Shown: positions 3,263-20,075, counted from the first letter of the stretch. The stretch is 64,000 nucleotides of DNA from Candidatus Latescibacterota bacterium (GCA_965222075.1 OZ244937.1:2336001-2400000), one strand, 5' to 3'. A program made the numbers and translations. The notes: generated by a model from the sequence alone, not told the origin.

Positions 3263-3416
3263 AAAACTTGTAAAGCAGGTCTCTTCATCGAAGAAGGTGA
3301 CGCGTCGAAGGGGCAGGCGATAGATCAGGTGAATAAGGATTCTTGATATTATACCTGAGAGTCGTATATTATAGCCGATTCAAAGTCGTCAGGCGCTTGA
3401 CGGATAGGGAAGGCTC

Positions 3417-4268: not shown

Positions 4269-4295
4269 CCAGCACAACAGGAGGCCTGACCGCCA

Positions 4296-5300
4296 GTGCC
4301 CAAACGCGTCACCATACCCGTGCTCATCGCCCTTCTCCTTGCGGGCATCGGCTATTTCCGGATGTCCGCTACATCTCCTTCCCAGCAGGCGGCGGCCCTC
4401 TGCATAGAAGGGGATGAGGCCCTGCTCAGAGCGGATGACGAAGGGGCACTGGCCGCTTATCGGAAGGCAAGAGACAAAGATCCCGATAACCCCCAAAGCC
4501 ACCTCGGTATCGCCCGGGTGCAGATCCGGCGCCGGCAGTTTGTCCAGGCTGCACGCACGCTCAGATCGGTGGTCTCCCTGGCGGGGGACGATGCGGAAAC
4601 CTGGATTGCGCTTGCCCGGGTCTTCCGGGATGCCAGAGCTTTCGAGCAGGGCATCTCTGTGTACTCAAAGGCCATTGAACTGGCCCCGGAACAGACCGAA
4701 CTCCTGATCGAACTTGGCAACCTCTACAGCTCGTGGGGGCACAAAGGCCTGCACGAAGTTGAGGCCGAAAAGTGTTATCGCCAGGCAGAGGCCCTGTGGC
4801 CGGACGATCCCCGAATTCACGCCGGCCTGGGGCGTCTCTTTTCCCTCCAGAGCGCTTACGACTCCGCGGCCGTTCGCCTGAGACAGGCCCTCCGACACAA
4901 ACCGGAAGACCCCGAACTCCTCACCGACTTCGCGGAGGTCGCCATCCTTCGGGGAACGCCCCAGAAGGCCCCACCCTACCTCCGGCAGGCCTTAACGGCT
5001 GACCCCTACCACCCCAGGGCCCGCTACTTCCTGGGAAGGACCTACCTGATGGTCGGTCAGAAAGCAGAGGCAGACCGGGAATTCGCCATCTTTAAGCGCC
5101 AAAAAAAGGTGTGGGATCAGATCCAATCCCTGGAAAAATCCGCAGCCGAACGCCCCACCGCCGAAGCCTACCAGATGCTGTCGCACCTCTACGCCCGGAT
5201 GGATCGGGACAGCCTCGCCGCCGAACGCCTCAGACGGGCGACGGCCCTGGACCCGATGGTGACCATCCCGCAGGAAGTAGACCAGACGGGCGCGTTCTAA
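4296..5300 (+). CDS. Membrane-anchored/exported tetratricopeptide-repeat protein
   Basis: N-terminal hydrophobic anchor followed by multiple TPR-like units (YRKARDKDPDN, YSKAIELAPEQ, LRQALTADPYH). Confidence 0.8.
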   Translation: MPKRVTIPVLIALLLAGIGYFRMSATSPSQQAAALCIEGDEALLRADDEGALAAYRKARDKDPDNPQSHLGIARVQIRRRQFVQAARTLRSVVSLAGDDAETWIALARVFRDARAFEQGISVYSKAIELAPEQTELLIELGNLYSSWGHKGLHEVEAEKCYRQAEALWPDDPRIHAGLGRLFSLQSAYDSAAVRLRQALRHKPEDPELLTDFAEVAILRGTPQKAPPYLRQALTADPYHPRARYFLGRTYLMVGQKAEADREFAIFKRQKKVWDQIQSLEKSAAERPTAEAYQMLSHLYARMDRDSLAAERLRRATALDPMVTIPQEVDQTGAF

Positions 5301-5323
5301 TTCCCCAAAAAGACCACAAACAC

Positions 5324-7318
5324 ATGGCGGAAAAGCAAAGGAGCTGGGTTGTAGCAGGCGAAACGATGCCGCAGGAGCGTGGGGTAACGCTTCGGTCAAT
5401 CGCCTTTGGGCTCTGCCTTTCAGTCGCCGTCGGCCTGCTGGGCAACTGGGTCCGCTTCGTCCTGTCCGGGTCCTTCATGTCCTACAGCCACATGCCGATG
5501 GGCAACCTCATCCTCTTCCTGCTGTCCATCCTCATCTGCGCCCCTCTGGCCTGGGGGCTGGGCCGCCGGTTTGTCTTCTCTCCTACCGAGTGGGTCACCA
5601 TCTTCTGCATGGGCTTCATCGGTTCTCTCGGTCCCACCTATGGCAGCAGCGGCGACCTTGTCGGTTTTATGGTCGCCCCCCACTACTTTGCAACCCCCGA
5701 GAACGAGTGGGCTGCGTTTCTCCATCCCTACATGCCCGGCTGGCTGATCCCCAAAAACGAAGGCGACGCAATGGTCTGGTTCTACAAGGGGGTGCCACAG
5801 GGGGCCTCCATCCCCTGGGGCGTCTGGGCCGTCCCCCTCGTCTGGTGGTTCCTCTTTATTTGCGCCGTCGGATTCGCCTGCGTCTGCGTCTCCACCCTCT
5901 TCCACCGGCAGTGGTCCGAGAACGAGAAACTCGTCTACCCTGCCCTGGCCCCCATTGTGGACATGACGACCCGCGTGGGCTCGGGCAAATGGTTTTTCCC
6001 GGAATTTATGCGGGGAAAGGCGTTCTGGGCCGGATTCGGGCTCACCGCCTCCGTCCTCGGGTGGAACATGGTCTCCTGGTTCTACCCGCTCTTTCCCAGC
6101 ATCCCCTTAGGCCCCAAGACCTGGGTCGCTTTCTCGCGTCACGACCCCTCCATCTACATCTTCCTCAGCACGGTCGTCATCTCATTCTCCTATTTCGCTA
6201 CCCTGGAAATCCTCTTCAGCATCTGGTTCTTCGACCTCCTCTTTGTCATCGAAGGGGGTGTCCTGAACCGGCTGGGGCTCAACATCATTTACAAAAACCA
6301 CTACGGAGGCGGGCACTACGCCTGGCAGACGGCCGGCGCCTTCCTTTCCCTGGGCCTCTGGGGAGTCTGGATCGCCCGTCTGCACCTCCGCGGCGTCATC
6401 CAAAAAGCCCTGAATCCCCCAAAATTCGCCCCCGACGGCGGCAATGATCTGCTCTCCTATCGGGCGGCGTTCATCGGCCTGATCGTGAGCTGCCTCTACA
6501 TGGCCGTCTGGCTCGGGCGGGCGGGCCTGGAGGTCAAAGTCATCCTCCTGCTGATCCCGTCCATGCTCCTTGTTTACATCACCCTGGCCAAGTTCGTGGC
6601 CGACTCGGGCCTGATCTACCTCGACCTGCCGACCTCCACGCTGAGGCTCCCCCTGATGGTCCTGGGAGGCGCGAATGCCCTGCAGGCCTCCTCGCACGCG
6701 GTCCTGGGCATCTCATCCCGCATCGTCAGCCACCACAACGGATTCGCAATGCCCGTGATGGCCCACATCAACCGCCTCGGGGAACGTATTTCCAATAACA
6801 AGCGCCGGTTCTTCTGGAGCGTCTGCGCAGCATTCGTCACCGGCCTGGTCACCTCCACGCTCTTCCTCATCTGGCTCGCCTACACCAGAGGGGCCGACAG
6901 CTTCGGTCCCAACTTTCTGATCCAGTACGCAGAACGCGTGGCGCTTGAAAGGGTCGTGACCAACATCAAAGGCGCCAAACCGATCGCATTGACCGACTAC
7001 GGATTCTTCCTCATCGGAGCAGGCGCCATGGCCTGCTTAAACCTGATGCGCTACCGCTTCGTCTGGTGGCCGATTCATCCCATCGGCTTTGCGCTCTCCG
7101 GGAACTATCTGGCCCGGCAGACAAGCTTTACCATCTTCGTCGCATGGCTGCTCAAACTTCTCATGCTCAAACTCGCCGGCGCTGCCTTCTACCGGAAATC
7201 CAGACCCTTTTTCATCGGCCTGCTCATCGGCTACATCCTGGCCGTGGCCGCAGGCGTAATCGTGGACGCCATCTGGTTCCAGCCCCTGGGCCAACAGCAC
7301 CGTCTGGACCCCCTCTGA
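5324..7318 (+). CDS. OPT-like polytopic membrane protein (DUF6785/DUF6784-like), copy 1
   Basis: ~664 aa with many TM segments. Motifs GVTLRSIAFG, RQWSENEKLVYP, WWPIHPIGF, RPFFIGLLIG. ATG 5324 aligns with the N-terminus of paralog 11978. Confidence 0.7.
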   Translation: MAEKQRSWVVAGETMPQERGVTLRSIAFGLCLSVAVGLLGNWVRFVLSGSFMSYSHMPMGNLILFLLSILICAPLAWGLGRRFVFSPTEWVTIFCMGFIGSLGPTYGSSGDLVGFMVAPHYFATPENEWAAFLHPYMPGWLIPKNEGDAMVWFYKGVPQGASIPWGVWAVPLVWWFLFICAVGFACVCVSTLFHRQWSENEKLVYPALAPIVDMTTRVGSGKWFFPEFMRGKAFWAGFGLTASVLGWNMVSWFYPLFPSIPLGPKTWVAFSRHDPSIYIFLSTVVISFSYFATLEILFSIWFFDLLFVIEGGVLNRLGLNIIYKNHYGGGHYAWQTAGAFLSLGLWGVWIARLHLRGVIQKALNPPKFAPDGGNDLLSYRAAFIGLIVSCLYMAVWLGRAGLEVKVILLLIPSMLLVYITLAKFVADSGLIYLDLPTSTLRLPLMVLGGANALQASSHAVLGISSRIVSHHNGFAMPVMAHINRLGERISNNKRRFFWSVCAAFVTGLVTSTLFLIWLAYTRGADSFGPNFLIQYAERVALERVVTNIKGAKPIALTDYGFFLIGAGAMACLNLMRYRFVWWPIHPIGFALSGNYLARQTSFTIFVAWLLKLLMLKLAGAAFYRKSRPFFIGLLIGYILAVAAGVIVDAIWFQPLGQQHRLDPL

Positions 7319-7435
7319 CCTCTGCCTGCCCGTCCCCATCAGGCTCTGGCAGCGTACATTGTTTTCCCTTGATGATTCGCCCTGGATAGGGTAGATTATG
7401 GTCTGTTGAAATCTCCCATCACAGACGGACACTCT

Positions 7436-10400
7436 ATGCGAACAACCTGGAAAAACATCCTGTCCATTACAAGTATTGTCGTCCTCTTTGTGCCCCTTGT
7501 CGTATTCTCTCCCGAGACCGTGACAAAACACCTGGTCAGATGGTTCAACCTTCACCCTCCGGAGGCACCTCCAGAGCACGCCCCCTCCGGCCAGAAGGCG
7601 CTGGCGGCGGCGGTCCGGGCGTCCATCCTGGAAGCCGACATCAAAGCCCACCTCACCCGTCTCACCTCATCAGGCTCCCGCGTCGTGGGATACCCCGGAC
7701 ACGAGGCGGCTTACCACTACATCAAAGACGCCTTCCAACAGATCGGCCTGGAGCAGGTCACCGTGGAAGCCTACGATGTCACCGCTCCCATCGACAAGGG
7801 ATGCAGCCTCAAGATCCTGGGCGATTCCCGTACCATCCCCCTCTATGCGGTCTGGCCAAACCTGGTGCGGACCTCTACGCTGCCGGGCAAGGGGCTTCAG
7901 GCTCCCCTGGTCGACGGGGGTTCCGGAGAGTTCTCGGACTTCAACGGGAAGGACCTCCAGGGCAGTGTGGTGTTGATGTCATTCAACTCCTGGAACCGCT
8001 GGATGAACGCGTCGATGCTGGGCGCCAAAGCGGTCATCTTCGTCGGGCCAGACTCTACGACCACCGCAGAGGCGGAGCAGAAGTTTTTCCAGGTGCCCCT
8101 CAACGTGCCCCGCTTCTGGATTGGCAGGCAGGAGGGCGAGGCGTTGCGTCGTCGTCTGAGTTTGGGGGAGCGGATCGAGGTGGAAGTGAAGGGTCGGATG
8201 GTGTGGGAGAAACACAAGGCGCACAACGTGTTTGGCCGAATAACGGGACGGCATCCCAGGTTGAAGGACGAGATTGTCCTCTTCGACGCCTACTACGACG
8301 CGATGTCTGTGGTTCCCGCGCTGGCGCCTGGTGCGGAGCAGGCCTCGGGTCTGGTCGCCCTGCTCGAACTCGCGGAATATTTGAAAGCCCATCCGCCTGC
8401 CCACACCGTCCTGTTCCTGGCCACGTCTGCGCACCACCTGGGGTTCCGGGGGGTGTGCGACTTTCTGGGTCGCCACGCGCGCAAGGAGGAGCACTTTGCT
8501 CCGCTGATGACCGATCCCATCGACATCCGGCTCTGGGTCTCCCTGGACCTCTCCTCGCACACCGACCAGATCGGCGTCCTGGGCTTCCAGTCCTTCCTCG
8601 CCCCGCTCGGCAGGCTGTTCTCCGAACTCGGCCGGCAACTCGCTCCCGCGCTCGACCTCAACGCCGACGGATCGCTGGTTGATGGCATCACGCCCCCTAC
8701 GGGCATGAGCTGGGACATGTTCATCCCCGGCGAAAACATTAAGACCGATGCCCAGGTCGTCCGAAGCGCGGGCATCCCTGCGCTCGCATTCGTAACCATC
8801 AACGACGGCCGGTTCCGGGTCGACACCCCCTTCGATAGGGTGGGTAGCGTCAACACCTCCAACCTGACAAAACAGATTCAACTCCTCACAGGGGTCTTCA
8901 ACAAGGTCCTCGACGACCCTCGTCTCCTCCTTGGCCAGCCCGCCAACCTGCGGGATGGGATGCGTGCTCTTAAGGGACGCATCCTTACCTTTCCCCGCCG
9001 CAGCCTGGTCCCCGACAAACCGCGCAGCGGGGCCATCGCCGCCCTCCGGATGACCACCGAGAAATCGGTGAAGGGAGTACGCGCCATCTTCTACGATCTC
9101 GCCGACGAAAAGGGAGAAATCTACATCCCCGGCCTGGCCGCGGACAAAGTGGCCTTAGAGGCCTACTACCTGGACCCGGAAACCGGCGAGATCACCTATG
9201 CCCCCAACCGGGGGCCCGCGGCCAGCATCTACAAGCTGGAATTCGGAATGGACAACTGGATCACCCGGGCTACCAGCGTCCTCTTCCCGTGCATAACCAC
9301 CGACTTCTACGAAACCGTCGATCCCCGTCACCTGTCCAGGCTCACCGAACTGAGCGTATACGGCGCAGGAAACACCGCGCCTCAGGAATATGGCTACACC
9401 CTCGGCTACGGCCCCAACGAGCCGGTCGGCGTGGTCTTCACCACACCCGGAGAACGGGTGAAATTAATCATGAGCGCCGGACCCATCGGCATCCGGTTCA
9501 TGCTCCTCAACTCGGACGGCCCCGGAAGCGAACAGGCCGCACGGGGCAGCGGGTTCACCACGCTCACGCACGGGGCCATCACCCACACGGCATTCCAGGC
9601 GGCGATAGACATGTGGACGCTGGACGAGGCGCGCATACGCGAACTGAGGGCCTACGGCATCCAGAACCAGCGCCTCAACGCCCTCCACAAGCAGGCCCGG
9701 AACCACCTCGAACGGGCAGAAGAGGCCCGGCGGAACCTGCGGTGGGACCGTTACACCAAGCACGCCCGGGCCGCGCTGGGCGTGGAGTCCCGGGCCTACC
9801 CGGACGTCAAATCGACCCAGAACGACGTCATCCGGGGCGTCGTCTTCACCATGGCGCTCGTCATCCCCTGCGCCTTTTTTGCCGAGCGGCTGCTGATCAC
9901 GGCCGCCGACATCCGATGGCAGGTCATCTGGTTCGCCCTCATCTTTTCGGCAACCTGGATCGTCCTCTCCATCGTCCACCCCGCCTTCAACCTCTCCAAC
10001 CCCATCGTTATTCTCCTGGCCTTCGTCATTCTATCTTTAGCCATCTTCGTCATCACCCTCGTCTTCTCCCGCTTCAACACCCACATGCGCCAGATCCGCA
10101 CCCGGGGAATGGGCATTCACCACGTGGACGTGGGACGCATCAGCGCCTCCATGGCCGCATTCCAGCTTGGCATCGCCAACATGAAGCGGCGAAAATTCCG
10201 AACCGTGCTCACCTTCTCCACTCTGGTCCTGCTGACCTTCACCGTCCTTTCGTTCACCTCCATCAAAACATCGCTCCGATTTCACCAGACCGCAAGCGAC
10301 CATCCGGGCCTGTATCCGGGCCTGCTCATCCGCAGCAAATTCTGGAGCCCGCTTGAAGAATCGGCCCTCGACTACGCCCGGGCGGACTTCGCCGGCGAGG

Positions 10401-11944
10401 CGGTCATCGCACCCCGGAGCTGGTATGCCTCAAAAAGCAAGAAGGCGATCCGGCTCAAGCACGGCCAGCAGTCGGCCAACGCCCTGGGCATCCTCGGCCT
10501 GACCCCGTCGGAGGCCGGAGTCACCCGCATCCAAACCTGCCTCAAGGCGGGGCGCTGGTTCCGGGGTGGAGAGCGGAACGTCTGCGTCGTACCCGAACCC
10601 ATGGCCAGACTGCTCGGCCTCACAGAAGCCGATGTCGGGCGGGCGCAAATCCGGCTCTTCGGAGAACACCTCACCGTCGTGGGCCTGGCCGACCCCGGCC
10701 GGTTAACCGCGCTGGTGGACCTTGACGGCGAACCCCTCACCCCGGCGGACTTCGTATTCACCGAACAAAGCGCGCTTGAGGAAATCGCACAGCAGGAAAA
10801 ACGTGAAAAATCCGGGCTGGAGGAGTCCAGCGTAGACGTGATGGAATTCGTCCACCTCGACCCGGGCAACGTCTTAATCGTCCCCTACCAGACCTTGCGG
10901 GAAGTCAACAGCCCCCTGCAGGCCGTCGCCGTGCGGTTTCACGACCCGAAAGTCGTCAAATCCCGTGTGGAGGACTTCCTCTCACGGCTCTCCGTGGTCC
11001 TCTTCGCCGGCATCCCCCGTCAGACCAGCGACGGACAGATCGAGCGCATCGACGTATCGGTCTACTCCTCCCTCGGGCACACCTCCCTGCGGGGAGTCGG
11101 CAACCTCGGTATCCCCATCGCCATTGCCGTACTCATCGTCCTCAACACCATGATGGGCTCGGTCTACGAACGGCTCCGGGAAATCGGCACCTACTCCTCC
11201 GTGGGGCTGGCCCCGGTCCACATCGCCTTCCTCTTCTTAGCCGAATCCTGTGTCTACGCCGTCCTGGGGGCGGTATCGGGCTACCTCCTGGGCCAGGGAA
11301 TCGCAAAAGCCCTGTTCTGGAAAGGCCACCTGCTGGGACTGACCCTCAATTATTCCTCCCTCTCCGCCATGGCCTCATCAGGGCTGGTTATGGCCGTCGT
11401 GATTCTGTCCACCCTCTATCCCGCCTGGCAGGCCTCCCGGATGGCCGTACCCGACATCACCCGGCGGTGGAACCTGCCGGACCCTGAGGGCGACCGGTGG
11501 CAGATCGCGTTCCCCTTCACCGTGGGAGGGCAGGAGGTCTTCGGGCTGTTCGCCTTCCTCACCCGGTACTTCGACTTCCACACCGAAGGATCGATGGGAA
11601 CATTCTACACCGAAGGCGCCCAACTTTCAACCCTATCGACCGATCGTGGAGAAAGCCACACCATCCAAACAACGATCTGGCTGGCCCCCTTCGACCTCGG
11701 CGTCAGCCAGACCGTACTGCTCAGGTCCAGGCCCACCGGCGATCATAACATCTACGCGCTCGACCTTACCATCGACCGCCTCTCGGGAGACGCCGCCTCT
11801 TGGAAGCGCTGCAACCAGCGGTTCATGAACCTGATCCGAAAACAGTTCCTCATCTGGCGAACGATCAGCCCGGAGGCGAAAGCGTACTACAGAGATGAAG
11901 GCCAGCGGCTCATTGAAAGCCCCTCGATTGTGGCTGTGTCGTAA
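7436..11944 (+). CDS. Giant PA/M28-peptidase-like + MacB/FtsX permease fusion protein, copy 1
   Basis: N-terminal TM; M28-like SRVVGYPG...AYYD...GAEQASGLVALLELA; MacB TM1 motif NMKRRKFRTVLT; periplasmic GRWF motif; FtsX motif NTMMGSVYERLREIG...G...FLAES. Confidence 0.8.
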   Translation: MRTTWKNILSITSIVVLFVPLVVFSPETVTKHLVRWFNLHPPEAPPEHAPSGQKALAAAVRASILEADIKAHLTRLTSSGSRVVGYPGHEAAYHYIKDAFQQIGLEQVTVEAYDVTAPIDKGCSLKILGDSRTIPLYAVWPNLVRTSTLPGKGLQAPLVDGGSGEFSDFNGKDLQGSVVLMSFNSWNRWMNASMLGAKAVIFVGPDSTTTAEAEQKFFQVPLNVPRFWIGRQEGEALRRRLSLGERIEVEVKGRMVWEKHKAHNVFGRITGRHPRLKDEIVLFDAYYDAMSVVPALAPGAEQASGLVALLELAEYLKAHPPAHTVLFLATSAHHLGFRGVCDFLGRHARKEEHFAPLMTDPIDIRLWVSLDLSSHTDQIGVLGFQSFLAPLGRLFSELGRQLAPALDLNADGSLVDGITPPTGMSWDMFIPGENIKTDAQVVRSAGIPALAFVTINDGRFRVDTPFDRVGSVNTSNLTKQIQLLTGVFNKVLDDPRLLLGQPANLRDGMRALKGRILTFPRRSLVPDKPRSGAIAALRMTTEKSVKGVRAIFYDLADEKGEIYIPGLAADKVALEAYYLDPETGEITYAPNRGPAASIYKLEFGMDNWITRATSVLFPCITTDFYETVDPRHLSRLTELSVYGAGNTAPQEYGYTLGYGPNEPVGVVFTTPGERVKLIMSAGPIGIRFMLLNSDGPGSEQAARGSGFTTLTHGAITHTAFQAAIDMWTLDEARIRELRAYGIQNQRLNALHKQARNHLERAEEARRNLRWDRYTKHARAALGVESRAYPDVKSTQNDVIRGVVFTMALVIPCAFFAERLLITAADIRWQVIWFALIFSATWIVLSIVHPAFNLSNPIVILLAFVILSLAIFVITLVFSRFNTHMRQIRTRGMGIHHVDVGRISASMAAFQLGIANMKRRKFRTVLTFSTLVLLTFTVLSFTSIKTSLRFHQTASDHPGLYPGLLIRSKFWSPLEESALDYARADFAGEAVIAPRSWYASKSKKAIRLKHGQQSANALGILGLTPSEAGVTRIQTCLKAGRWFRGGERNVCVVPEPMARLLGLTEADVGRAQIRLFGEHLTVVGLADPGRLTALVDLDGEPLTPADFVFTEQSALEEIAQQEKREKSGLEESSVDVMEFVHLDPGNVLIVPYQTLREVNSPLQAVAVRFHDPKVVKSRVEDFLSRLSVVLFAGIPRQTSDGQIERIDVSVYSSLGHTSLRGVGNLGIPIAIAVLIVLNTMMGSVYERLREIGTYSSVGLAPVHIAFLFLAESCVYAVLGAVSGYLLGQGIAKALFWKGHLLGLTLNYSSLSAMASSGLVMAVVILSTLYPAWQASRMAVPDITRRWNLPDPEGDRWQIAFPFTVGGQEVFGLFAFLTRYFDFHTEGSMGTFYTEGAQLSTLSTDRGESHTIQTTIWLAPFDLGVSQTVLLRSRPTGDHNIYALDLTIDRLSGDAASWKRCNQRFMNLIRKQFLIWRTISPEAKAYYRDEGQRLIESPSIVAVS
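7584..8578 (+). repeat. ~1 kb near-identical direct repeat, copy A (pairs with 14170-15164)
   Basis: Constant offset of 6586 bp and about 7 mismatches seen. Off-frame ORFs are identical in both copies (7776/14362 and 7897/14483). Confidence 0.92.
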
Positions 11945-11977
11945 AGAGAACGCGTTTTCATTCAAAGGAACAAACGC

Positions 11978-13984
11978 ATGGCGGAAACGCAGGCAAACCG
12001 CGTTAAAACACCAGCCGGGCCAGGCGGGGAAACAGCGCCCCAGGAGCGCGGTGTAACCCTCCGCGCAATCCTCTTCGGGCTCTGCATTGCCACCCTCATA
12101 GGCCCGATGGGCGACGCGGTCCGCTACATCCTGCACGCCTCCTTTATGGCCTACAGCCACATGCCCATGGGCAACCTTATCCTTTACCTGCTGTCCACCC
12201 TCATGCTCGCCCCTCTGGCCTGGTGGTTCGGCAAACGGTTCGCCTTCTCTCCATCGGAGTGGATCACCATCTTCTGCATGGGCTTCATCGCCTCCATGGG
12301 CCCCACCTACGGCATCAGCGGCTACCTCGTGGGCCTGATGGTGGGCCCCTACTACTTTGCAACCCCGGAGAACGAGTGGAGCAAATACCTCCAGCCCTAC
12401 ATGCCCCACTGGCTGATCCCCACCAACGACGGCAGCGTCATGACCTGGTTCTACGAGGGGCTCCCCCAGGGGGTGCCCATCCCCTGGAACATCTGGGCCG
12501 TGCCCCTTTTCTGGTGGTTCACCTTCATCTGCGCCGTAGGATTCGTCTGCGCCTGCGCCGCCATTCTCCTCCGCCGCCAGTGGTCCGAAAACGAAAGGCT
12601 CGTCTATCCGGCCATGGAGCCCATTATCGAGATGACGACCCGTGTGGGCAGGGGGACACGGTTCTTCCCGGAATACATGCAGGGCAAAGCCTTCTGGATC
12701 GGGTTCGCGCTTACCACCTTCGTCTTCGGGTGGAACATGATCTCCTGGGCCTACCCCCAGTTTCCCCGTTTCCCCACCGCATACGCCAGATGGACCTTTT
12801 TCTCGCGGGACTATCCTCCCGCCCTCTTTTTTTTGAGCACGGTCGTCATCTGCTTCTCCTATTTTGCCAGCTTAGAGATCCTCTTCAGCATCTGGTTCTT
12901 CGACCTCCTCTTCATCGTCGAAGGGGGCATCCTGAACCGGCTGGGGGTCAGGGCCATCTCGCCTTATTACGGCACCGGACGCTACTACTGGCAGACATCG
13001 GGCGCCTTCTTCAGCCTCGCCCTTTGGGGCGTGTGGGTCGCCCGTCTGCATTTTGCCGACGTCTTCCGAAAAGCCCTGCACCCCGAAAAATCCACCCTGG
13101 ACGACAGCAAGGAGCTGCTCTCCTACCGGGGGGCGCTCATCGGCCTGATCGTCGGTTGTCTCTACATCGCCGTCTGGCTGAACCGCGTGGGCATGGAACT
13201 CAAAATGATCGCCCTGCTCATCCCGTCCATGCTCCTCGTCTACACCACCGTGGCGAAAATCCTGGCCGATTCGGGGCTGATCTACGTCAACTCGCCGCTT
13301 TCTGGCTGGGGCCTGGCCGTGAGGCTGCTGGGTGGATCGCATACCCTGACGATTCTCACCAGGGCCACCCTGGGTCTTTCGTCCAGAGTCATCAACCACT
13401 ACCGGGGGTTCGCCATGGGCTCACTCGCCCACATCAACCGCCTTGCAGAATTCGTTCCCAGGGACAAGCGCCGGCTCTTCTGGGGCGTCTGTGCGGCCTT
13501 CGTCATCGGCATGGTCACTTCCACACTCTTTACCATCTGGCTGGGATACACCATAGGCGGCTACAACATCCGGCCCAACTGGTTGATCATCCGCTCGGCC
13601 ATGGGGCAGATCGGGGGAATCGCGAACGCCGCCAAGACCCCCTCCTCGCCGATCGAAATCACCAACTACTGGTTTTTCCTCATCGGAGCAGGCGCCATGG
13701 CCTGCTTAAACCTGATGCGCTACCGTTTCGTCTGGTGGCCGATTCATCCCATCGGCTTTGCGCTCTCCGGCACGGCCCTGTCCCGGCTGACAAGCGTCAC
13801 CATCTTCGTGGCGTGGCTGGTCAAACTGGTCATGCTCAAACTCGTCGGCGCTGCCTTCTACCGGAAGTCCAGGGCGTTTTTCATCGGCATGCTCATCGGC
13901 TACATCCTTCAGGTGACCCTCGGATTGGTTGTAGATACCATCTGGTTCCAGCCCCAGGGACACCGGGTGCATAAGTGGTATTGA
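11978..13984 (+). CDS. OPT-like polytopic membrane protein (DUF6785/DUF6784-like), copy 2
   Basis: Full-length paralog of 5324-7318 (YSHMPMGNL, YFATPENEW, LEILFSIWFFDLLF, WWPIHPIGFALSG). Confidence 0.7.
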   Translation: MAETQANRVKTPAGPGGETAPQERGVTLRAILFGLCIATLIGPMGDAVRYILHASFMAYSHMPMGNLILYLLSTLMLAPLAWWFGKRFAFSPSEWITIFCMGFIASMGPTYGISGYLVGLMVGPYYFATPENEWSKYLQPYMPHWLIPTNDGSVMTWFYEGLPQGVPIPWNIWAVPLFWWFTFICAVGFVCACAAILLRRQWSENERLVYPAMEPIIEMTTRVGRGTRFFPEYMQGKAFWIGFALTTFVFGWNMISWAYPQFPRFPTAYARWTFFSRDYPPALFFLSTVVICFSYFASLEILFSIWFFDLLFIVEGGILNRLGVRAISPYYGTGRYYWQTSGAFFSLALWGVWVARLHFADVFRKALHPEKSTLDDSKELLSYRGALIGLIVGCLYIAVWLNRVGMELKMIALLIPSMLLVYTTVAKILADSGLIYVNSPLSGWGLAVRLLGGSHTLTILTRATLGLSSRVINHYRGFAMGSLAHINRLAEFVPRDKRRLFWGVCAAFVIGMVTSTLFTIWLGYTIGGYNIRPNWLIIRSAMGQIGGIANAAKTPSSPIEITNYWFFLIGAGAMACLNLMRYRFVWWPIHPIGFALSGTALSRLTSVTIFVAWLVKLVMLKLVGAAFYRKSRAFFIGMLIGYILQVTLGLVVDTIWFQPQGHRVHKWY

Positions 13985-14021
13985 GACCTGCAGGGGCGAA
14001 AATCGACATGGAGCAATCACA

Positions 14022-17000
14022 ATGCGACTAACGTGGAAAAACATCACCCTGGCCCTCTTTATCGCCGTCCTCTTTGTGCCCCTCGTCGTATTTTCCCCCG
14101 AGACCGTGACCGACCACCTGGTCGCGTTCTTCAACATCCGGTACCCGGAACCTCCGCCCCAGAAATTCGCCTCCGGCCAGAAGGCGCTGGCGGCGGCGGT
14201 CCGGGCGTCCATCTCGGAAGCCGACGTTAAAGCCCACCTCACCCGTCTCACCTCATCAGGCTCCCGCGTCGTGGGATACCCCGGACACGAGGCGGCTTAC
14301 CACTACATCAAAGACGCCTTCCAACAGATCGGCCTGGAGCAGGTCACCGTGGAAGCCTACGATGTCACCGCTCCCATCGACAAGGGATGCAGCCTCAAGA
14401 TCCTGGGCGATTCCCGTACCATCCCCCTCTATGCGGTCTGGCCAAACCTGGTGCGGACCTCTACGCTGCCGGGCAAGGGGCTTCAGGCTCCCCTGGTCGA
14501 CGGGGGTTCCGGAGAGTTCTCGGACTTCAACGGGAAGGACCTCCAGGGCAGTGTGGTGTTGATGTCATTCAACTCCTGGAACCGCTGGATGAACGCGTCG
14601 ATGCTGGGCGCCAAAGCGGTCATCTTCGTCGGGCCAGACTCTACGACCACCGCAGAGGCGGAGCAGAAGTTTTTCCAGGTGCCCCTCAACGTGCCCCGCT
14701 TCTGGATTGGCAGGCAGGAGGGCGAGGCGTTGCGTCGTCGTCTGAGTTTGGGGGAGCGGATCGAGGTGGAAGTGAAGGGTCGGATGGTGTGGGAGAAACA
14801 CAAGGCGCACAACGTGTTTGGTCGAATAACGGGACGGCATCCCAGGTTGAAGGACGAGATTGTCCTCTTCGACGCCTACTATGACGCGATGTCTGTGGTT
14901 CCCGCGCTGGCGCCTGGTGCGGAGCAGGCCTCGGGTCTGGTCGCCCTGCTCGAACTCGCGGAATATTTGAAAGCCCATCCGCCTGCCCACACCGTCCTGT
15001 TCCTGGCCACGTCTGCGCACCACATGGGGTTCCGGGGGGTGTGCGACTTTCTGGGTCGCCACGCGCGCAAGGAGGAGCACTTTGCTCCGCTGATGACCGA
15101 TCCCATCGACATCCGGCTCTGGGTCTCCCTGGACCTCTCCTCGCACACCGACCAGATCGGCGTCTGGAATGGGTCTTCATCCTTCTACTACCAGCGCTTC
15201 TTTACCCCGCTGGGAAAGATGTTTTCCCAACTCGGGGCGGAACTCGCCCCCGCCTTTGGCCTCAACGCCGCCAGGTCCCTGGTAGACGGCATCAATCCCC
15301 CTTCCGGCATGAGCTGGCGTATGTTTATTCCCGGAGGGAGGATCAAGACCGACTCGGAAGTGGTCCTCACGGCCGGCATGCCCACCCTCGCATTCGTAAC
15401 CATCAACGATGCCCGCTTCAGGGTCGATACCCCTTTCGATACGGTGGAAGGGGTCAACATCCCCAACCTGACAAATCAGACCCAGCTCCTCACAGGAGTT
15501 TTTAGCAAGGCCCTGGACGATCCGTACTTCCTCCCCGACTACAAGGTCGCCATGAAAGACCGCATGCGCGCCCTGAAAGGCCGCATCCTCACCTTCCCCC
15601 GCCGCAGCATCACGCCCGACAGGCCCCGTAAAGGGGCCATCGTTGCCCTCCGGATGTCCCACCAGAAATCGGTGAAGGGCGTGCGCACCTTTTTCTACGA
15701 TGTGGCCGACGAAAACGGCGAGTTCTTCATCCCCGGGCTGGCGGTTCGGTGGGTCGGACTGAGCGCCTACTACCTCGACCCGGAAACCGGAGACATCACC
15801 TATGCCCCCGACCGGGGGCAGGCATCCAGGATCTACAAGCCGGAATTCGGCATGGACTGGTGGATCACCCGGGCAACGCGCATCCTCTTTCCCTGCATCT
15901 CCACCGATTTCTACGACACGGTAGACCCCCGCTACCTCACCAAGCTCTCAAGCCTGAGCGTCTACGGCGACGGAAACGTGGCCCCTCAGGAATACGGCTA
16001 TACCATCGGCTACGGCCGCAACGAACCGGTGGGCGTGGTCTTTACCCGCCCCAACGAAAAGGTCAAATTGGTGATGAGATCGGGGCAAGTCGGCATCCGT
16101 TACCTCCTGATCAACGCCACCGACGCGAGCAGCGAAGAGATTGCGCGCGGCGACGGATTCACCACCATCACCCACGGCGCCATCACCCATACCGCCTTCC
16201 AGGCCGCCAGCGACATGTGGATCCTCAACGAGGCCCGGATGCGCGAACTGAGGGCCTACGGCATCGAAAACTTCCGCCTGAACACCCTCCACGAGCAGGC
16301 CGCAAAGCACCTCGACAGGGCGAGAAGTGGGCGCAAAGACCTGCGGTGGGACGACTTTGTCAAGCATTCCCGGGCAGCGCTCGGTCTTGAATCCCGGGCC
16401 TATCCGGACGTCAAATCCACCCAGAACGACGTCATCCGGGGCGTCGTCTTCTTTATGGCCCTCGTCATCCCCTGCGCCTTCTTCGCCGAACGCCTCATCT
16501 TCACCGCATCCGACATCCGCTGGATGCTCACTGGATTTACCGGAATCTTTGTCGTCATCTGGATCTTCCTGTCCCTGGTCCATCCGGCCTTTGACCTCTC
16601 CAACCCCTTTGTCATCCTCCTCGCCTTCATCCTCCTGGCGCTGGCGTGCTTTGTCATCTCCATCGTCTTCTCCCGCTTCAACGCCAACATGCGTAACCTG
16701 CGCACTGAGGCAGCGGTGATTCACGATGTAGACGTTGGCCGGGTGAGCGCCTCCGTGGCCGCATTCCAGCTGGGCATTGCCAACATGAAACGGAGAAAAC
16801 TCCGAACCGTGCTCACCTTCTCCACCCTGGTCCTGCTGACCTTCACCGTCCTTTCGTTCACCTCCATCAAATCCCTGCTCCGATTCCACCAGATCGCCCG
16901 GGACAACCAGGGGACCTACCCCGGCATGCTCATCCGCAGCAAATACTGGGCGGCGCTTGAAGAATCGGTCCTCGACTATGCCCAGGCCACCTTTGAAGGC

Positions 17001-18581
17001 GAGGCCGTGGTTGCCCCCCGAAGCTGGTACGCGGACAAGTCCAAGAAGACCGTCCAGGTGGAGCACCGGGACAAGGCCGCCAACGCCCTGGGCGTGCTTG
17101 GCCTGTCGGCGCAGGAATCGGAAATTTTCAAAGGATCTCCAACCCGGATTCAGGACTGTCTCTCCGCGGGCCGCTGGTTCCGGGAGGGCGAACGAAAAGT
17201 CGCCGTTGTCCCCGAAGAGATGGCCAAACTCCTCGACATCACCTCCGATGACGTCGGCCGCACCCAGGTCCGCCTCTTTGGAGACCTCTTCACCGTCGTC
17301 GGCATCCTCATCTCGGACCGGATGGAGGAACTGAAAGACCTGGACGGGGAAACCCTGACACCTGCGGATTTCGTAGAAACCGACCGGAACGTCTTCCTGC
17401 AAATGGCCCAGCAGGAACAGCGAGAGAAAGCCGGCCTGGAGGACCCCGATGTGGACATCATGGAATTCGAACACCTCGACCCGGCAAACGTCCTGATCGT
17501 CCCCTACCAGACTCTGCGCGAAGTCAGCAGCCCTCTCCAGGCAATCGCCGTCCGGTTCCGCGATCCCACCGTGGTCGACGCCCGTACAAAAGACTTCATC
17601 TCCCGGCTCTCCGTGGTCCTCTTCGCCGGGATTCCCCAGATAGGCCCCGACGGAGAAATCGGACGCATCCGCGTCTCCGTCTTCTCCTCGCTTGGGCACA
17701 CGTCGCTTCGCGGCATCAGCAACCTCTTCATCCCCATCGCCATCGCCGCCCTCATTGTCCTCAACACCATGATGGGGTCTGTCTACGAACGGTTCCGCGA
17801 AATAGGCATCTACTCCTCGGTCGGACTCGCTCCTGTACACATCGCCTTCCTCTTCCTGGCCGAGTCCTGTGTCTACGCCGTGCTCGGAGCGGTATCGGGC
17901 TACCTCGTCGCTCAGGGCGTCGCCTGGTTCCTCCTCAACCAGGGCATCCTGCAAGGCTTCACCCTCAATTACTCTTCCCTCTCTGCCATGGGCTCCTCCG
18001 GGCTGGTCATGCTCGTGGTTATCGTCTCCACCGTATACCCCGCGCGCCGGGCGTCGCAGATGGCCGTCCCCGACATCACCCGGCGTTGGAAGATCCCCGA
18101 CCCGGACGGCGACCGGTGGCACTTTGAATTTCCCTTTACCATCGCGGGCAGGGAAGTCCTGGGGCTCTTTACCTTCCTGACCCGGTATTTCGACTTCCAT
18201 ACCGAGGGATCGATGGGCAACTTCTACACCGAAGGCGCGCACCTTTCGGTCCTCACCACAGATCAGGGAGAGGGATATACCATAAGCACCACCATCTGGC
18301 TGGCTCCCTTCGACCTCGGCGTCAGCCAGACCGTACAGCTCAGATCCAGGCCGACCGGTGACCACGACATCCAGGCCTTGGACATCACCATCCAACGCCT
18401 GTCGGGCGACGTCTCCTCCTGGAAGCGCTGCAACCAGCGGTTTATGAACCAGATCCGCAAACAGTTCCTCATCTGGAGAACCATCGCCCCCGAGGCCCAA
18501 AGCCAGTACCGGGACGAAGGCCGGCAGCTCATCGAAGCGTCCCCGGGTGAGGAAATGGAGAAGGTAGAGGCAGGAGACTGA
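14022..18581 (+). CDS. Giant PA/M28-peptidase-like + MacB/FtsX permease fusion protein, copy 2
   Basis: Full-length paralog of 7436-11944 with the same domain order. Confidence 0.8.
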   Translation: MRLTWKNITLALFIAVLFVPLVVFSPETVTDHLVAFFNIRYPEPPPQKFASGQKALAAAVRASISEADVKAHLTRLTSSGSRVVGYPGHEAAYHYIKDAFQQIGLEQVTVEAYDVTAPIDKGCSLKILGDSRTIPLYAVWPNLVRTSTLPGKGLQAPLVDGGSGEFSDFNGKDLQGSVVLMSFNSWNRWMNASMLGAKAVIFVGPDSTTTAEAEQKFFQVPLNVPRFWIGRQEGEALRRRLSLGERIEVEVKGRMVWEKHKAHNVFGRITGRHPRLKDEIVLFDAYYDAMSVVPALAPGAEQASGLVALLELAEYLKAHPPAHTVLFLATSAHHMGFRGVCDFLGRHARKEEHFAPLMTDPIDIRLWVSLDLSSHTDQIGVWNGSSSFYYQRFFTPLGKMFSQLGAELAPAFGLNAARSLVDGINPPSGMSWRMFIPGGRIKTDSEVVLTAGMPTLAFVTINDARFRVDTPFDTVEGVNIPNLTNQTQLLTGVFSKALDDPYFLPDYKVAMKDRMRALKGRILTFPRRSITPDRPRKGAIVALRMSHQKSVKGVRTFFYDVADENGEFFIPGLAVRWVGLSAYYLDPETGDITYAPDRGQASRIYKPEFGMDWWITRATRILFPCISTDFYDTVDPRYLTKLSSLSVYGDGNVAPQEYGYTIGYGRNEPVGVVFTRPNEKVKLVMRSGQVGIRYLLINATDASSEEIARGDGFTTITHGAITHTAFQAASDMWILNEARMRELRAYGIENFRLNTLHEQAAKHLDRARSGRKDLRWDDFVKHSRAALGLESRAYPDVKSTQNDVIRGVVFFMALVIPCAFFAERLIFTASDIRWMLTGFTGIFVVIWIFLSLVHPAFDLSNPFVILLAFILLALACFVISIVFSRFNANMRNLRTEAAVIHDVDVGRVSASVAAFQLGIANMKRRKLRTVLTFSTLVLLTFTVLSFTSIKSLLRFHQIARDNQGTYPGMLIRSKYWAALEESVLDYAQATFEGEAVVAPRSWYADKSKKTVQVEHRDKAANALGVLGLSAQESEIFKGSPTRIQDCLSAGRWFREGERKVAVVPEEMAKLLDITSDDVGRTQVRLFGDLFTVVGILISDRMEELKDLDGETLTPADFVETDRNVFLQMAQQEQREKAGLEDPDVDIMEFEHLDPANVLIVPYQTLREVSSPLQAIAVRFRDPTVVDARTKDFISRLSVVLFAGIPQIGPDGEIGRIRVSVFSSLGHTSLRGISNLFIPIAIAALIVLNTMMGSVYERFREIGIYSSVGLAPVHIAFLFLAESCVYAVLGAVSGYLVAQGVAWFLLNQGILQGFTLNYSSLSAMGSSGLVMLVVIVSTVYPARRASQMAVPDITRRWKIPDPDGDRWHFEFPFTIAGREVLGLFTFLTRYFDFHTEGSMGNFYTEGAHLSVLTTDQGEGYTISTTIWLAPFDLGVSQTVQLRSRPTGDHDIQALDITIQRLSGDVSSWKRCNQRFMNQIRKQFLIWRTIAPEAQSQYRDEGRQLIEASPGEEMEKVEAGD
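14170..15164 (+). repeat. ~1 kb near-identical direct repeat, copy B
   Basis: Matches 7584-8578. Identity drops abruptly after ...GACCAGATCGGCGTC. Confidence 0.92.
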
Positions 18582-18678
18582 GTGGATCAAAAACCCGGTC
18601 ACCGTGTTCATCCCACCACCGCGAACAATACACCCCGACAGGTCAGGCGGTTGAATCGCCAGATAAAGGATTGGAGAA

Positions 18679-19956: not shown

Positions 19957-20075
19957 GCCATACGGCTCACCTTTCTCGGCACAGCGCCCATGTCCGATCG
20001 CAAAAACGTCTCCCTCGCCAATGAAATCCGGCGCATCTACGGAACCGCTGCTTGAAACCATAGGGTGTGTGAACC

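What the first reader, a model, noticed from the sequence alone, without database searches (positions are those of the whole stretch)
4296..18581. Candidate undescribed envelope transport system: TPR + 2x [OPT-like membrane protein + PA/M28-MacB/FtsX giant]
Seen: five co-directional genes with gaps of 23, 117, 33 and 37 bp, arranged TPR-A1-B1-A2-B2. Protein A (~665 aa) begins GVTLRAILFG, reminiscent of the OPT/YSL T.Ra.i.G opening, and is highly polytopic. Protein B (~1,510 aa) runs N-terminal anchor, PA + M28-like ectodomain, beta-rich domain, helical region, 3 TMs, MacB TM1, periplasmic core, FtsX TMs, and a ~170-aa C-terminal tail (WLAPFDLGVSQ). Known: OPT proteins are secondary importers of peptides or metal chelates, and MacB/FtsX proteins are ATP-driven mechanotransducers rather than pores. 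Inference: A and B were duplicated as a unit, so they are probably obligate partners. They may form a hybrid uptake or sensing machine in which B captures an extracytoplasmic ligand and passes it to A. I know of no characterised system with this architecture.
Basis: partly seen in the sequence, partly recalled or inferred. Interest (0 to 1): 0.85.

Follow-up and report, generated by a model that had tools for sequence, protein, structure and literature searches.

The report
Orphan MacB-like giant with OPT-fold permease
The cluster is a doubled copy of a conserved but uncharacterised envelope gene set, found in at least two little-known bacterial phyla, that joins a TPR protein, a 1,500-residue MacB/FtsX-type membrane protein with no ATPase gene beside it, and a permease folded like plant iron and peptide importers.

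Summary
Five co-directional genes, TPR-A1-B1-A2-B2, lie at the stated coordinates with the stated gaps.

- **A (DUF6785+DUF6784):** it has no sequence match to OPT. Its AlphaFold model matches only barley Yellow Stripe 1, an OPT-family proton symporter.
- **B:** it combines PA and M28-like parts, a MacB periplasmic domain, FtsX helices and a family-specific cytoplasmic tail. Its zinc site is remodelled and conserved across the family. No ABC ATPase gene lies nearby.

The genome is Candidatus Latescibacterota. It holds 46 A paralogs but only 8 B paralogs, and only 7 A copies lie near a B. So A does not need B. Most A copies lie in other loci, many beside TonB-receptor-like genes.

B almost always has an OPT-fold neighbour: A upstream and/or a second family, C, downstream (65 of 73 loci). 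In a second phylum, TPR-B-C is a single-copy, near-universal operon.

The A1-B1 pair is an extra copy. The nearest relative has only TPR-A2-B2. A 1-kb tract of B1 was gene-converted from B2.

Function is inferred. My best reading is that B captures a periplasmic ligand and hands it to a proton-driven OPT-fold importer. The gene set appears undescribed.

The parts
4296..5300 (+). TPR protein (334 aa) with an N-terminal hydrophobic anchor. It is the first gene of the set.
   Evidence: Pfam finds TPR_19 at 1.2e-26 and many other TPR families. A TPR gene stands directly upstream of A-B in 8 related loci. In a ninth locus, L045, it lies downstream of B-C. In a second phylum a small TPR gene stands directly upstream of B.
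5324..7318 (+). A1: a polytopic DUF6785+DUF6784 membrane protein (664 aa), the extra, divergent copy.
   Evidence: Pfam gives 9.5e-96 and 1.8e-22. A1 is 64% identical to A2. In the same-genus relative the A gene is 64% identical to A1 and 94% to A2.
7436..11944 (+). B1: a 1502-aa membrane protein. It has an N-terminal anchor, a PA/M28-like ectodomain with a remodelled metal site, 3 TM segments, a MacB-type TM1, a periplasmic domain, FtsX TM2-4 and a cytoplasmic tail of about 170 aa.
   Evidence: Pfam finds FtsX, M28 and PA. PDB profile hits are aminopeptidase 2ek8 at 3.5e-13 and MacB 5lil at 1.4e-10. B1 is 77% identical to B2.
7584..8578 (+). Gene-conversion tract in B1, covering the PA and M28 N-terminal part (residues about 50-381). 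B2 was the donor.
   Evidence: The tract is 99.3% identical to B2, against about 75% elsewhere. The longest exact run is 593 bp, at 7643-8235. The tract is 95% identical to the relative's B, like the rest of B2, whereas the rest of B1 is 74% identical to it.
11978..13984 (+). A2: a DUF6785+DUF6784 OPT-fold permease (668 aa), the ancestral copy of this locus.
   Evidence: Pfam gives 7e-99 and 1.9e-19. The AlphaFold2 model has pLDDT 86.3 and pTM 0.89. Foldseek top hits are HvYS1 7wsr/7wst, E 4e-7. A2 is 94% identical to the A gene of the same-genus relative.
14022..18581 (+). B2: a 1519-aa orphan MacB/FtsX-type giant, the ancestral copy of this locus.
   Evidence: Pfam finds FtsX, M28, MacB_PCD and PA. 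B2 is 95% identical to the B gene of the same-genus relative. The tail, residues 1345-1519, matches 1462 protein clusters. In 149 of the 150 listed it lies at or near the C-terminal end.
14170..15164 (+). The donor copy in B2 of the tract that is identical in B1.

Best explanation
**What the cluster is.** The window holds a lineage-specific tandem doubling of a conserved three-part envelope gene set.
1. An inner-membrane-anchored periplasmic TPR protein.
2. 'B', a giant membrane protein of the MacB/FtsX (type VII ABC) superfamily.
   - It has lost any linked ATPase.
   - It carries a large periplasmic PA/M28-type ectodomain. The di-zinc site is replaced by a conserved Tyr-Tyr-Asp / Glu / His-His / Asp constellation.
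   - It ends in a family-specific cytoplasmic tail.
3. A permease with the fold of OPT/Yellow-Stripe proton symporters. Here this is A (DUF6785+DUF6784). In most other loci it is also, or instead, family C.

**Most likely working (inferred).** A is a proton-coupled importer of small oligomers or chelates. It can work alone, as most of its 46 paralogs seem to, in loci enriched in TonB-receptor-like genes. B, probably as a dimer and with the TPR protein, acts as a non-catalytic periplasmic receptor or gate. It binds a ligand at the remodelled M28/PA site and passes it, or the signal, to the adjacent OPT-fold permease.

**Shown:** gene order, domain content, folds of A and C, loss of the zinc ligands, lack of a linked ATPase gene, and conserved linkage across two phyla.

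**Inferred:** direction of transport, physical contact, the ligand, and the energy source.
For: **Fold**
- The A2 model (pLDDT 86.3) and the C model (pLDDT 82.4) each have only two significant PDB matches.
- Both matches are HvYS1: E 4e-7 for A2 and 2.5e-10 for C, TM 0.56-0.68. The next hits have TM of about 0.1.
- HvYS1 is a proton-driven symporter (PMC9691689, passages read).

**Linkage seen from B**
- Of 73 B loci with at least 2.3 kb on both flanks: 34 are A-B-C, 19 are B-C, 12 are A-B and 8 have neither adjacent. Of those 8, 5 have an A 1-4 kb upstream.
- 7 of the 8 own B paralogs have an A or a C beside them.
- A tree of the own A paralogs needs 3 label changes for the B-linked copies, against 6.7 in shuffles (0 of 500 as low).

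**Phyletic pattern**
- Own phylum: A in 137 of 151 genomes and B in 138 of 151. Both are 0 of 13 in one family.
- Second phylum: B in 55 of 61 and C in 55 of 61. Both are present in 54 genomes and both absent in 5.
- In that phylum B is directly followed by C in 16 of 16 fetched loci. A small upstream ORF is present in 15 of 16, and it is a TPR protein in 4 of 4 tested.

**Context of A**
- TonB-receptor-like F10 genes lie within 4 genes of 9 of 43 A paralogs, against 1.7 expected. None of 500 random gene sets reached 9.

**Remodelled site**
- In 85 B proteins: Y286 in 81, Y287 in 85, D288 in 85, E301 in 79, H333 in 85, H334 in 68 and D371 in 82.
- In 2ek8 the aligned residues are HHD, D and EE.

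**No linked ATPase**
- None lies in the window flanks.
- An ABC-ATPase-like ORF lies within 10 kb in 12 of 80 loci and in 0 of 16 second-phylum loci.
Against: - No A-B contact is shown.
- 39 of 46 A paralogs have no B nearby, so B is not a general requirement for A.
- B is single-copy, near-universal and about 47-52% identical over 740 residues in a second phylum of 1-2.7 Mb genomes. That pattern fits a housekeeping envelope role better than substrate-specific nutrient capture.
- B's periplasmic parts are not hypervariable among paralogs (0.38-0.57 identity, against 0.59-0.71 in the membrane parts). A ligand-specific receptor might be expected to vary more.
- One B sub-clade keeps an FtsE-like ATPase gene two genes upstream of A. 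B may therefore use an ATPase encoded elsewhere.
- One distant homologue carries a LysM domain, which hints at cell-wall glycans.
- A and C do not match the OPT Pfam model at all. Import and proton coupling are extrapolated from the fold alone.
Confidence: 0.4

Rival explanations
1. B is an FtsEX-like regulator or scaffold for cell-wall remodelling. Its pseudo-peptidase ectodomain and the TPR protein bind peptidoglycan or control a hydrolase. Energy comes from an FtsE-type ATPase encoded elsewhere. The OPT-fold neighbour recycles the released peptides.
For: - B has the FtsX and MacB_PCD core.
- One distant homologue with the same tail carries LysM plus an NMB0315-like domain I.
- One B sub-clade conserves an FtsE-like ATPase gene two genes upstream of A: own genome 2641730-2642377, 211 bits to the FtsE model, with counterparts in 7 related loci.
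- The near-universal single-copy status in a phylum of small genomes fits a housekeeping role.
- From recall, not tested here: TPR lipoproteins and degenerate peptidases regulate peptidoglycan hydrolases in known systems such as NlpI and EnvC.
Against: - The genome already has a canonical adjacent FtsE-FtsX pair (4391132 and 4392485).
- 68 of 80 B loci have no ABC-ATPase-like ORF within 10 kb. In the own genome, 6 of 8 B copies are more than 50 kb from one.
- LysM was seen in 1 of 5 distant homologues scanned.
- Eight paralogs, several in loci with polysaccharide-lyase-like genes, are odd for a division factor.
Confidence: 0.2
2. The set is an exporter or extractor. B expels or extracts a periplasmic or outer-leaflet substrate in the MacB/LolCDE manner, such as a lipoprotein, glycolipid or peptide. 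The OPT-fold protein supplies the substrate across the membrane, or supplies proton-motive energy in place of the missing ATPase.
For: - The MacB-type architecture is present, with an elbow helix, TM1, a periplasmic core and TM2-4.
- An ATPase gene is consistently missing, while a polytopic partner is constantly adjacent.
- The membrane helices are the most conserved part of B (0.59-0.72 identity).
- The tail is always C-terminal and is found in 1462 clusters. Since B has no ATPase domain, it may stand where an ATPase would dock (inference).
Against: - All characterised OPT members known to me are importers (recall). HvYS1 is an uptake symporter.
- A paralogs sit in catabolic, receptor-containing loci.
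- No outer-membrane exit duct or adaptor gene is seen in the window.
Confidence: 0.15
3. A and B are functionally independent neighbours. They are co-located only by co-regulation or by the history of the locus.
For: - Most A paralogs work without B.
- No other positive evidence was found. The complex job gave no answer and counts neither way (see Tried and rejected).
Against: - Adjacency holds in 65 of 73 loci, with gaps of 5-117 bp in the own genome.
- The B-C pairing is kept across two phyla.
- A and B paralogs diversified in parallel.
- 7 of 43 A paralogs lie near a B, against 0.64 expected. None of 500 random gene sets reached 7.
Confidence: 0.1
4. B is a biogenesis or assembly factor for its polytopic neighbour. 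This would resemble eukaryotic nicalin, an inactive M28/PA-like protein of a membrane-protein insertion complex.
For: - Nicalin is among the PDB sequence hits of the B profile (7tm3, E 1.3e-4).
- The peptidase site is degenerate.
- B always sits beside a large multi-pass protein.
Against: - 39 of 46 A paralogs have no B.
- The nicalin match covers only about 70 residues of the M28 core.
- The role of nicalin is recalled, not tested here.
Confidence: 0.05

Closest known systems
Yellow Stripe 1 / OPT family proton symporters (HvYS1, PDB 7wsr/7wst; Pfam PF03169)
   Same: The whole-chain fold of A and of C matches (TM 0.56-0.68, probability 1.00). Size is similar at about 650-700 aa. Both have a polytopic build with an N-terminal G-x-T/N-x-[RK]-[AT]-[IL] opening.
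   Different: Neither Pfam OPT nor a PDB profile search detects any sequence relation. Pfam files A under DUF6785/DUF6784 and gives C no family. The substrate and the coupling ion are unknown. The family is expanded to 46 copies in one genome.
MacB (MacAB-TolC), LolCDE, FtsEX and YtrF: type VII ABC transporters / mechanotransducers
   Same: B shares the FtsX four-helix module, with a periplasmic core domain between TM1 and TM2. PDB hits are MacB at 1.4e-10, YtrF at 3.3e-9, and LolF/LolC.
   Different: B has no fused or adjacent ATPase. It has about 900 extra N-terminal residues: an anchor, a PA/M28-like ectodomain and 3 TM segments. It also has a family-specific C-terminal tail of about 170 aa. 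Its constant partner is an OPT-fold permease rather than an adaptor or hydrolase.
ADOP 'duplicated orphan permease' family (TIGR03434)
   Same: Both are FtsX-type permeases found in many copies without a linked ATPase. The orphan property of ADOP is recalled from the family's name and description.
   Different: The match is only 19.8-25.3 bits against a cut-off of 622. B has one FtsX module rather than two, and it carries the M28/PA ectodomain and the tail.
PA + M28 aminopeptidases (2ek8, YwaD) and their inactive relatives (nicalin)
   Same: B residues 58-338 align with the PA-M28 aminopeptidase 2ek8 at 3.5e-13. Nicalin is also hit.
   Different: The zinc ligands and the catalytic Glu are replaced: HHD by YYD, D by E, EE by HH. 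The replacements are conserved across the family. The domain is fused to a MacB-type membrane core.

Membership tests
Pfam DUF6785 + DUF6784 | Score above the gathering threshold for both models | tested here: met
   A1 scores 321.7 and 79.9 bits. A2 scores 332.1 and 70.1 bits. The cut-offs are 25 and 26.4.
OPT family (Pfam PF03169 / TC 2.A.67) | Sequence match to the OPT model | tested here: not met
   A1 and A2 give no OPT hit at E<=0.01. The whole genome gives 0 matches at E<=10, while 5 of the 14 control genomes matched, 2 of them above the cut-off.
OPT family (Pfam PF03169 / TC 2.A.67) | YS1-type fold | tested here: met
   Foldseek against 7wsr/7wst gives E 4e-7 and TM 0.56-0.63 for A2, and E 2.5e-10 and TM 0.63-0.68 for C.
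OPT family (Pfam PF03169 / TC 2.A.67) | Proton-coupled uptake of oligopeptides or metal chelates, and the cavity Asp residues proposed for HvYS1 | not tested
   Transport cannot be tested with these tools. A residue-level superposition on Asp446/490/494 was not made.
MacB/FtsX type VII ABC superfamily | FtsX C-terminal helical module | tested here: met
   PF02687 scores 51.5 bits in B1 and 52.1 bits in B2, with a cut-off of 25.5. MacB 5lil is hit at 1.4e-10.
MacB/FtsX type VII ABC superfamily | Periplasmic core domain between TM1 and TM2 | tested here: inconclusive
   MacB_PCD scores 28.5 bits in B2 (cut-off 27). B1 gives no hit at E<=0.01. The precomputed Pfam column lists it for some homologues only.
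MacB/FtsX type VII ABC superfamily | Cognate ABC ATPase, fused or encoded beside the permease | tested here: not met
   None is fused. None lies in the window flanks. The nearest ATPase-like ORFs are about 58 and 64 kb away. One is seen within 10 kb in 12 of 80 related loci and in 0 of 16 second-phylum loci. An ATPase acting from elsewhere is not excluded.
M28 metallopeptidases | Di-zinc ligands (His, Asp, Glu, Asp, His) and the catalytic Glu | tested here: not met
   The alignment to 2ek8 shows HHD replaced by YYD, D by E and EE by HH. No His stands at position 286 in any of 85 B proteins. The assignment of D371 and the last His ligand rests on recalled motifs.
PA domain (PF02225) | Score above the gathering threshold | tested here: inconclusive
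   The score is 21.3 bits against a cut-off of 23.9. The alignment to PA-containing 2ek8 does span this stretch.
ADOP (TIGR03434) | Score above the curated cut-off, and a duplicated FtsX module | tested here: not met
   The score is 19.8-25.3 bits against a cut-off of 622.3, with one matching stretch.
TPR proteins | Multiple TPR repeats | tested here: met
   22 TPR-type families match, and TPR_19 gives 4 stretches.

The most novel reading that the evidence does not exclude
B is a MacB-type mechanotransducer that has swapped its ATPase for a cytoplasmic tail domain. It is driven by, or gates, the transport cycle of an adjacent elevator-type OPT-fold permease. That would make a hybrid secondary-transporter / mechanotransmission machine powered by the proton gradient. 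It would serve a core envelope function in Omnitrophota-type and Latescibacterota bacteria, and would have been multiplied in the latter for nutrient-acquisition loci.
Probability: 0.15. Interest if true: 0.9.

Novelty: new variant of a known kind. Interest (0 to 1): 0.7.

Why it matters
- **MacB/FtsX proteins.** They are understood as ATP-driven machines. Here is a large, strongly conserved branch with no linked ATPase gene and a constant OPT-fold partner. The tail domain alone defines 1462 clusters at 50% identity. The question of what powers or uses it becomes testable.
- **Two new OPT-fold groups.** DUF6785/6784 and family C are identified as bacterial proteins with the OPT/YS1 fold. Sequence methods miss this.
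- **A dominant transporter family.** With 46 copies, A is the second-largest paralog family in this genome. It is a candidate main inner-membrane transporter behind the TonB-receptor-like loci of Latescibacterota. In a second phylum the family has 1-10 copies in 57 of 61 genomes sampled.
- **A core operon of unknown role.** TPR-B-C is near-universal and single-copy in a phylum of small genomes. This points to an unrecognised core envelope function.

Tried and rejected
- **Complex prediction.** A2 (residues 22-668) was folded with B2 (795-958 and 1225-1356). ipSAE was 0.00 in both runs and the verdict was 'no answer'. This counts neither for nor against binding. Full-length B could not be used because of the 1000-residue limit.
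- **Profile of A against PDB sequences.** Nothing significant was found. The best hit was 7x0r at E 1.4.
- **hhalign of C against A.** E was 0.013 for this single comparison, but the probability was only 3%. The motifs line up (GFN-KTI with GVT-RAI, ERLPFP with ERLVFP). I do not count this as evidence of homology. The shared fold is the evidence.
- **ESM Atlas.** The B tail gave no usable hit. B residues 385-795 gave only an unnamed Latescibacterota cluster at 0.93, probably its own kind.
- **Promoter and terminator scan of 3200-19200.** It showed nothing at the intergenic gaps.
- **RNA libraries.**
  - Three sponge metatranscriptome runs from one study hold only 5-7% of the sampled words.
  - Short contigs of 160-340 nt, with 0-2 mismatches, lie on all five genes. 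One bridges the TPR/A1 junction (5163-5373).
  - DNA carry-over cannot be excluded and contigs cannot show a transcript, so I draw no expression claim. Parts without cover mean nothing.
- **SBP idea.** Two SBP_bac_5 genes directly follow one A paralog (L121). An ABC permease gene (BPD_transp_1) lies two genes further on, so they may belong to an ordinary ABC importer. I dropped them as support for 'A uses periplasmic binders'.
- **B as the only FtsX-type protein of the second phylum.** This is rejected. Those genomes hold 1-7 FtsX-domain matches each.
- **Supplementary files.** Those of the HvYS1 paper, which hold its conservation figures, could not be seen.


Full report
**1. The observation**

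Listing and translating the ORFs gives five co-directional genes:
- TPR, 4296-5300
- A1, 5324-7318
- B1, 7436-11944
- A2, 11978-13984
- B2, 14022-18581

The gaps are 23, 117, 33 and 37 bp, exactly as reported. The starts of A1 and B1 were chosen by similarity to A2, B2 and relatives.

Pfam gives these results:
- The first gene is a TPR protein.
- A1 and A2 match DUF6785 (E 1e-95 and 7e-99) plus DUF6784.
- B1 and B2 match FtsX.
- B1 and B2 match a partial Peptidase_M28, covering profile positions 1-78 of 193.
- B1 and B2 give a sub-threshold PA match.
- B2 alone matches MacB_PCD.

NCBIfam adds only weak sub-threshold hits to ADOP, LolC, MacB and FtsX. Hydropathy gives B2 one N-terminal segment, three central segments and four FtsX-type segments.

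The flanks hold a MatE gene and an ion channel upstream. Downstream they hold a SpeD-SpeE fusion, a flavin reductase, an M14-like peptidase, an acetyltransferase and a queuosine-salvage gene. None is an ABC ATPase.

**2. The organism and the size of the families**

Source names of close homologues and record titles are Candidatus Latescibacterota. Some are labelled Gemmatimonadetes.

The window lies in a 5.36-Mb single-contig genome.
- The genome has 47 DUF6785 matches.
- 46 of them are full-length paralogs.
- In my own crude gene set of 4038 greedy longest ORFs, this is the second-largest paralog family.
- There are only 8 full-length B paralogs.

**3. Who sits next to whom in this genome**

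Seen from B:
- Six of the 8 B paralogs have an A directly upstream, or one gene away, with gaps of 5-112 bp.
- Three have a third polytopic gene, 'C' (family F116, 690-806 aa), beside them.
- One, at 5284191, has no polytopic neighbour.

Seen from A:
- Only 7 of the 46 paralogs are near a B.
- The neighbourhood statistics use 43 of the 46. Three fell out of the greedy gene set.
- TonB-receptor-like genes (family F10: CarboxypepD_reg + Plug) lie within four genes of 9 of 43 A paralogs, against 1.7 expected.
- Unknown families F11, F12 and F3, PhyH dioxygenases and large TPR proteins are also enriched.
- ABC ATPases are not enriched.

**4. The fold of A, and of C**

An AlphaFold2 model of A2, from a 41-sequence alignment, has pLDDT 86.3 and pTM 0.89.
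- Foldseek against the PDB gives two significant hits, both the barley Yellow Stripe 1 transporter (7wsr and 7wst; E 4e-7 and 1e-6; TM 0.56-0.63).
- Everything else has TM of about 0.1.

C has no Pfam family. Its model, from 30 sequences, has pLDDT 82.4.
- It gives the same two hits (E 2.5e-10; TM 0.63-0.68).

HvYS1 is a proton-driven symporter of the OPT family (PMC9691689, passages read).

Sequence methods do not see the relation:
- A and C give no OPT Pfam hit.
- The whole genome gives none, even at E<=10.
- The A profile gives no PDB sequence hit.

So A and C have the OPT/YS1 fold but do not pass the sequence test for the OPT family.

**5. What B is**

A family profile of 25 sequences hits these PDB entries:
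- PA-M28 aminopeptidases: 2ek8 at 3.5e-13, YwaD at 2.8e-9
- MacB: 1.4e-10
- YtrF
- LolF and LolC
- Nicalin, weakly

The aligned zinc and catalytic positions of 2ek8 are HHD, D and EE. In B they read YYD, E and HH.

In 85 B proteins (8 own plus 77 from other genomes) these replacements are nearly invariant. Y287, D288 and H333 are found in 85 of 85. No member has His at position 286. The site is therefore remodelled and conserved, not decayed. It is probably not an aminopeptidase site and may bind something else.

Among B paralogs the membrane helices are the most conserved parts, at 0.59-0.72 identity. The periplasmic parts are at 0.38-0.61 and the tail at 0.55-0.61.

The 175-residue tail alone finds 1462 clusters at 50% identity.
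- In 149 of the 150 listed it lies at or near the C-terminal end (the exception is P0501). Many of these proteins have 1000-3053 residues; the shorter ones may be fragments.
- Of five such proteins scanned, all have FtsX. Three also have the partial M28. One adds Big_5, and one adds LysM and an NMB0315-like domain.

C-terminal halves of the same kind are named from Armatimonadota, Omnitrophica, Planctomycetota and Syntrophobacterales records. Many of these are partial.

**6. ATPase**

A Walker-A plus ABC-signature scan finds an ATPase-like ORF within 10 kb in 12 of 80 B loci.
- Seven of these lie in related loci: six at one fixed position, two genes upstream of A, and L049 further upstream.
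- The own-genome counterpart, at 2641730-2642377, is an ABC_tran protein scoring 211 bits to the FtsE model.
- For B1 and B2 the nearest such ORF is 58-64 kb away.

Other FtsX-type genes of this genome do have adjacent ATPases, including an FtsE-FtsX pair.

**7. Other genomes**

*Own phylum (151 genomes sampled; kin are not independent).*
- A is found in 137 and B in 138.
- Both are 0 of 13 in one family.
- The one discordant genome is 67% complete.

*80 loci fetched with the B profile.* 73 have at least 2.3 kb on both sides:
- 34 are A-B-C
- 19 are B-C
- 12 are A-B
- 8 have neither adjacent, and 5 of these have an A 1-4 kb upstream

*Second phylum.* It was reached through loci whose records are titled Candidatus Omnitrophota. 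One is titled Vermiphilus sp. Genomes are 0.9-2.7 Mb.
- B is found in 55 of 61 genomes, in most of them as one place, at 47-52% identity over the last 740 residues in full-length matches.
- C is found in 55 of 61.
- Both are present in 54, each alone in 1, and neither in 5.
- In 16 fetched loci, C directly follows B in 16.
- An ORF of 107-224 aa directly precedes B in 15. The sixteenth locus is cut.
- 4 of 4 of those ORFs tested are TPR proteins, and 3 are hit by the window's own TPR protein.
- No ATPase-like gene was found in these loci.
- DUF6785 is also present there, in 57 of 61 genomes with 1-10 matches.
- Those genomes also have other FtsX-type genes.

The conserved core is therefore TPR + B + an OPT-fold permease. 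The window's TPR-A-B form uses A in the place usually held by C.

**8. History of this locus**

The same-genus relative (L041) has only three genes here:
- TPR, 90% identical
- A, 94% identical to A2 and 64% to A1
- B, 95% identical to B2 and 76% to B1

More distant relatives also have a single TPR-A-B. Their A and B are closer to A2 and B2.

A1 and A2 are nevertheless each other's nearest paralogs in this genome (SH-aLRT 90; this is the quick tree, because the careful search did not finish). B1 and B2 are also each other's nearest. So an A-B unit was copied as a unit. The copy is older than the split from those relatives, which lack it at this site.

A 995-bp tract (B1 7584-8578, B2 14170-15164) is 99.3% identical, against about 75% elsewhere. 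It is as close to the relative's B as the rest of B2 is. So B2 converted B1.

**9. Reading**

*Shown:* the anatomy, the folds, the remodelled site, the lack of a linked ATPase gene, and the conserved linkage of B to an OPT-fold gene and a TPR gene.

*Inferred:*
- A and C are proton-coupled importers, from the fold and from A's receptor-rich loci.
- B with the TPR protein is a non-catalytic periplasmic receptor or gate for the neighbouring permease.

I give this 0.4. The main doubts are these:
- No contact has been shown. The one complex job gave no answer.
- B has a housekeeping-like distribution in the second phylum.
- An FtsE-like ATPase gene is conserved in one sub-clade.

The rivals are a cell-wall (FtsEX-like) role at 0.2, an exporter or extractor at 0.15, independent neighbours at 0.1, and a biogenesis factor at 0.05.

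**10. Novelty**

Full-text searches found 0 papers for DUF6785 or DUF6784. They found 0 papers with three or more of FtsX, M28, orphan permease, MacB and 'without ATPase'. A search on Latescibacteria with TonB-dependent or polysaccharide utilisation listed two papers. I saw only the listing. The library lacks most subscription journals.

All parts belong to known superfamilies. The combination, the ATPase-less MacB-type branch and the two OPT-fold groups appear uncharacterised. I file it as a new variant of a known kind.

Noticed in passing
own genome G000:C1, 46 places listed: DUF6785/DUF6784 is expanded to 46 full-length paralogs, the second-largest paralog family in this 5.36-Mb genome. First-look candidate counts of about 15-88 per genome occur across most of the phylum.
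   Followed up: partly
own genome, for example G000:C1:62636-70295 (L009, L011) and 5108838-5109791 (L012): A triad recurs beside A paralogs: a TonB-receptor-like protein (F10: CarboxypepD_reg + Plug, about 1050 aa), F11 (about 800 aa) and F12 (about 320 aa). F11 and F12 have no Pfam family. This may be an uncharacterised outer-membrane uptake set.
   Followed up: partly
L122 (G000:C1:2629000-2645000), and L049-L051, L053, L056, L058, L075: One B sub-clade keeps an FtsE/LolD-type ABC ATPase gene two genes upstream of A-B-C. It is a candidate ATPase acting from a distance for B proteins.
   Followed up: partly
L121:11209-18714 (G000:C1:4904208-4911713): One A paralog is followed by two SBP_bac_5 solute-binding genes. 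An ABC permease gene (BPD_transp_1) lies a little further on.
   Followed up: partly
window 18679-19956 (+): This gene fuses S-adenosylmethionine decarboxylase (AdoMet_dc) to spermidine synthase domains. It lies directly after B2.
   Followed up: no
protein P0403 (2451 aa): A distant B-type protein carries LysM and an NMB0315-like domain I ahead of the M28-like, MacB_PCD, FtsX and tail parts. This hints at binding to cell-wall glycans.
   Followed up: no
window 3300-19990, runs X1-X3: Short contigs from three sponge metatranscriptome libraries of one study, with 0-2 mismatches, lie on all five genes and on neighbouring genes. DNA-type runs from three other studies hold 97-99% of the sampled words of 8700-14000.
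   Followed up: partly
second-phylum genomes, for example G178:C51, G180:C6, G181:C212, G198:C125, G168:C4: In several genomes B and C lie in the same reading frame, separated by a single TAA. The open frames read about 2100 aa with one stop inside. In others B and C overlap or abut.
   Followed up: no
window 2-967 (+) and L123:14884-17319: DUF3604-like genes occur at the window's start and near another B locus.
   Followed up: no
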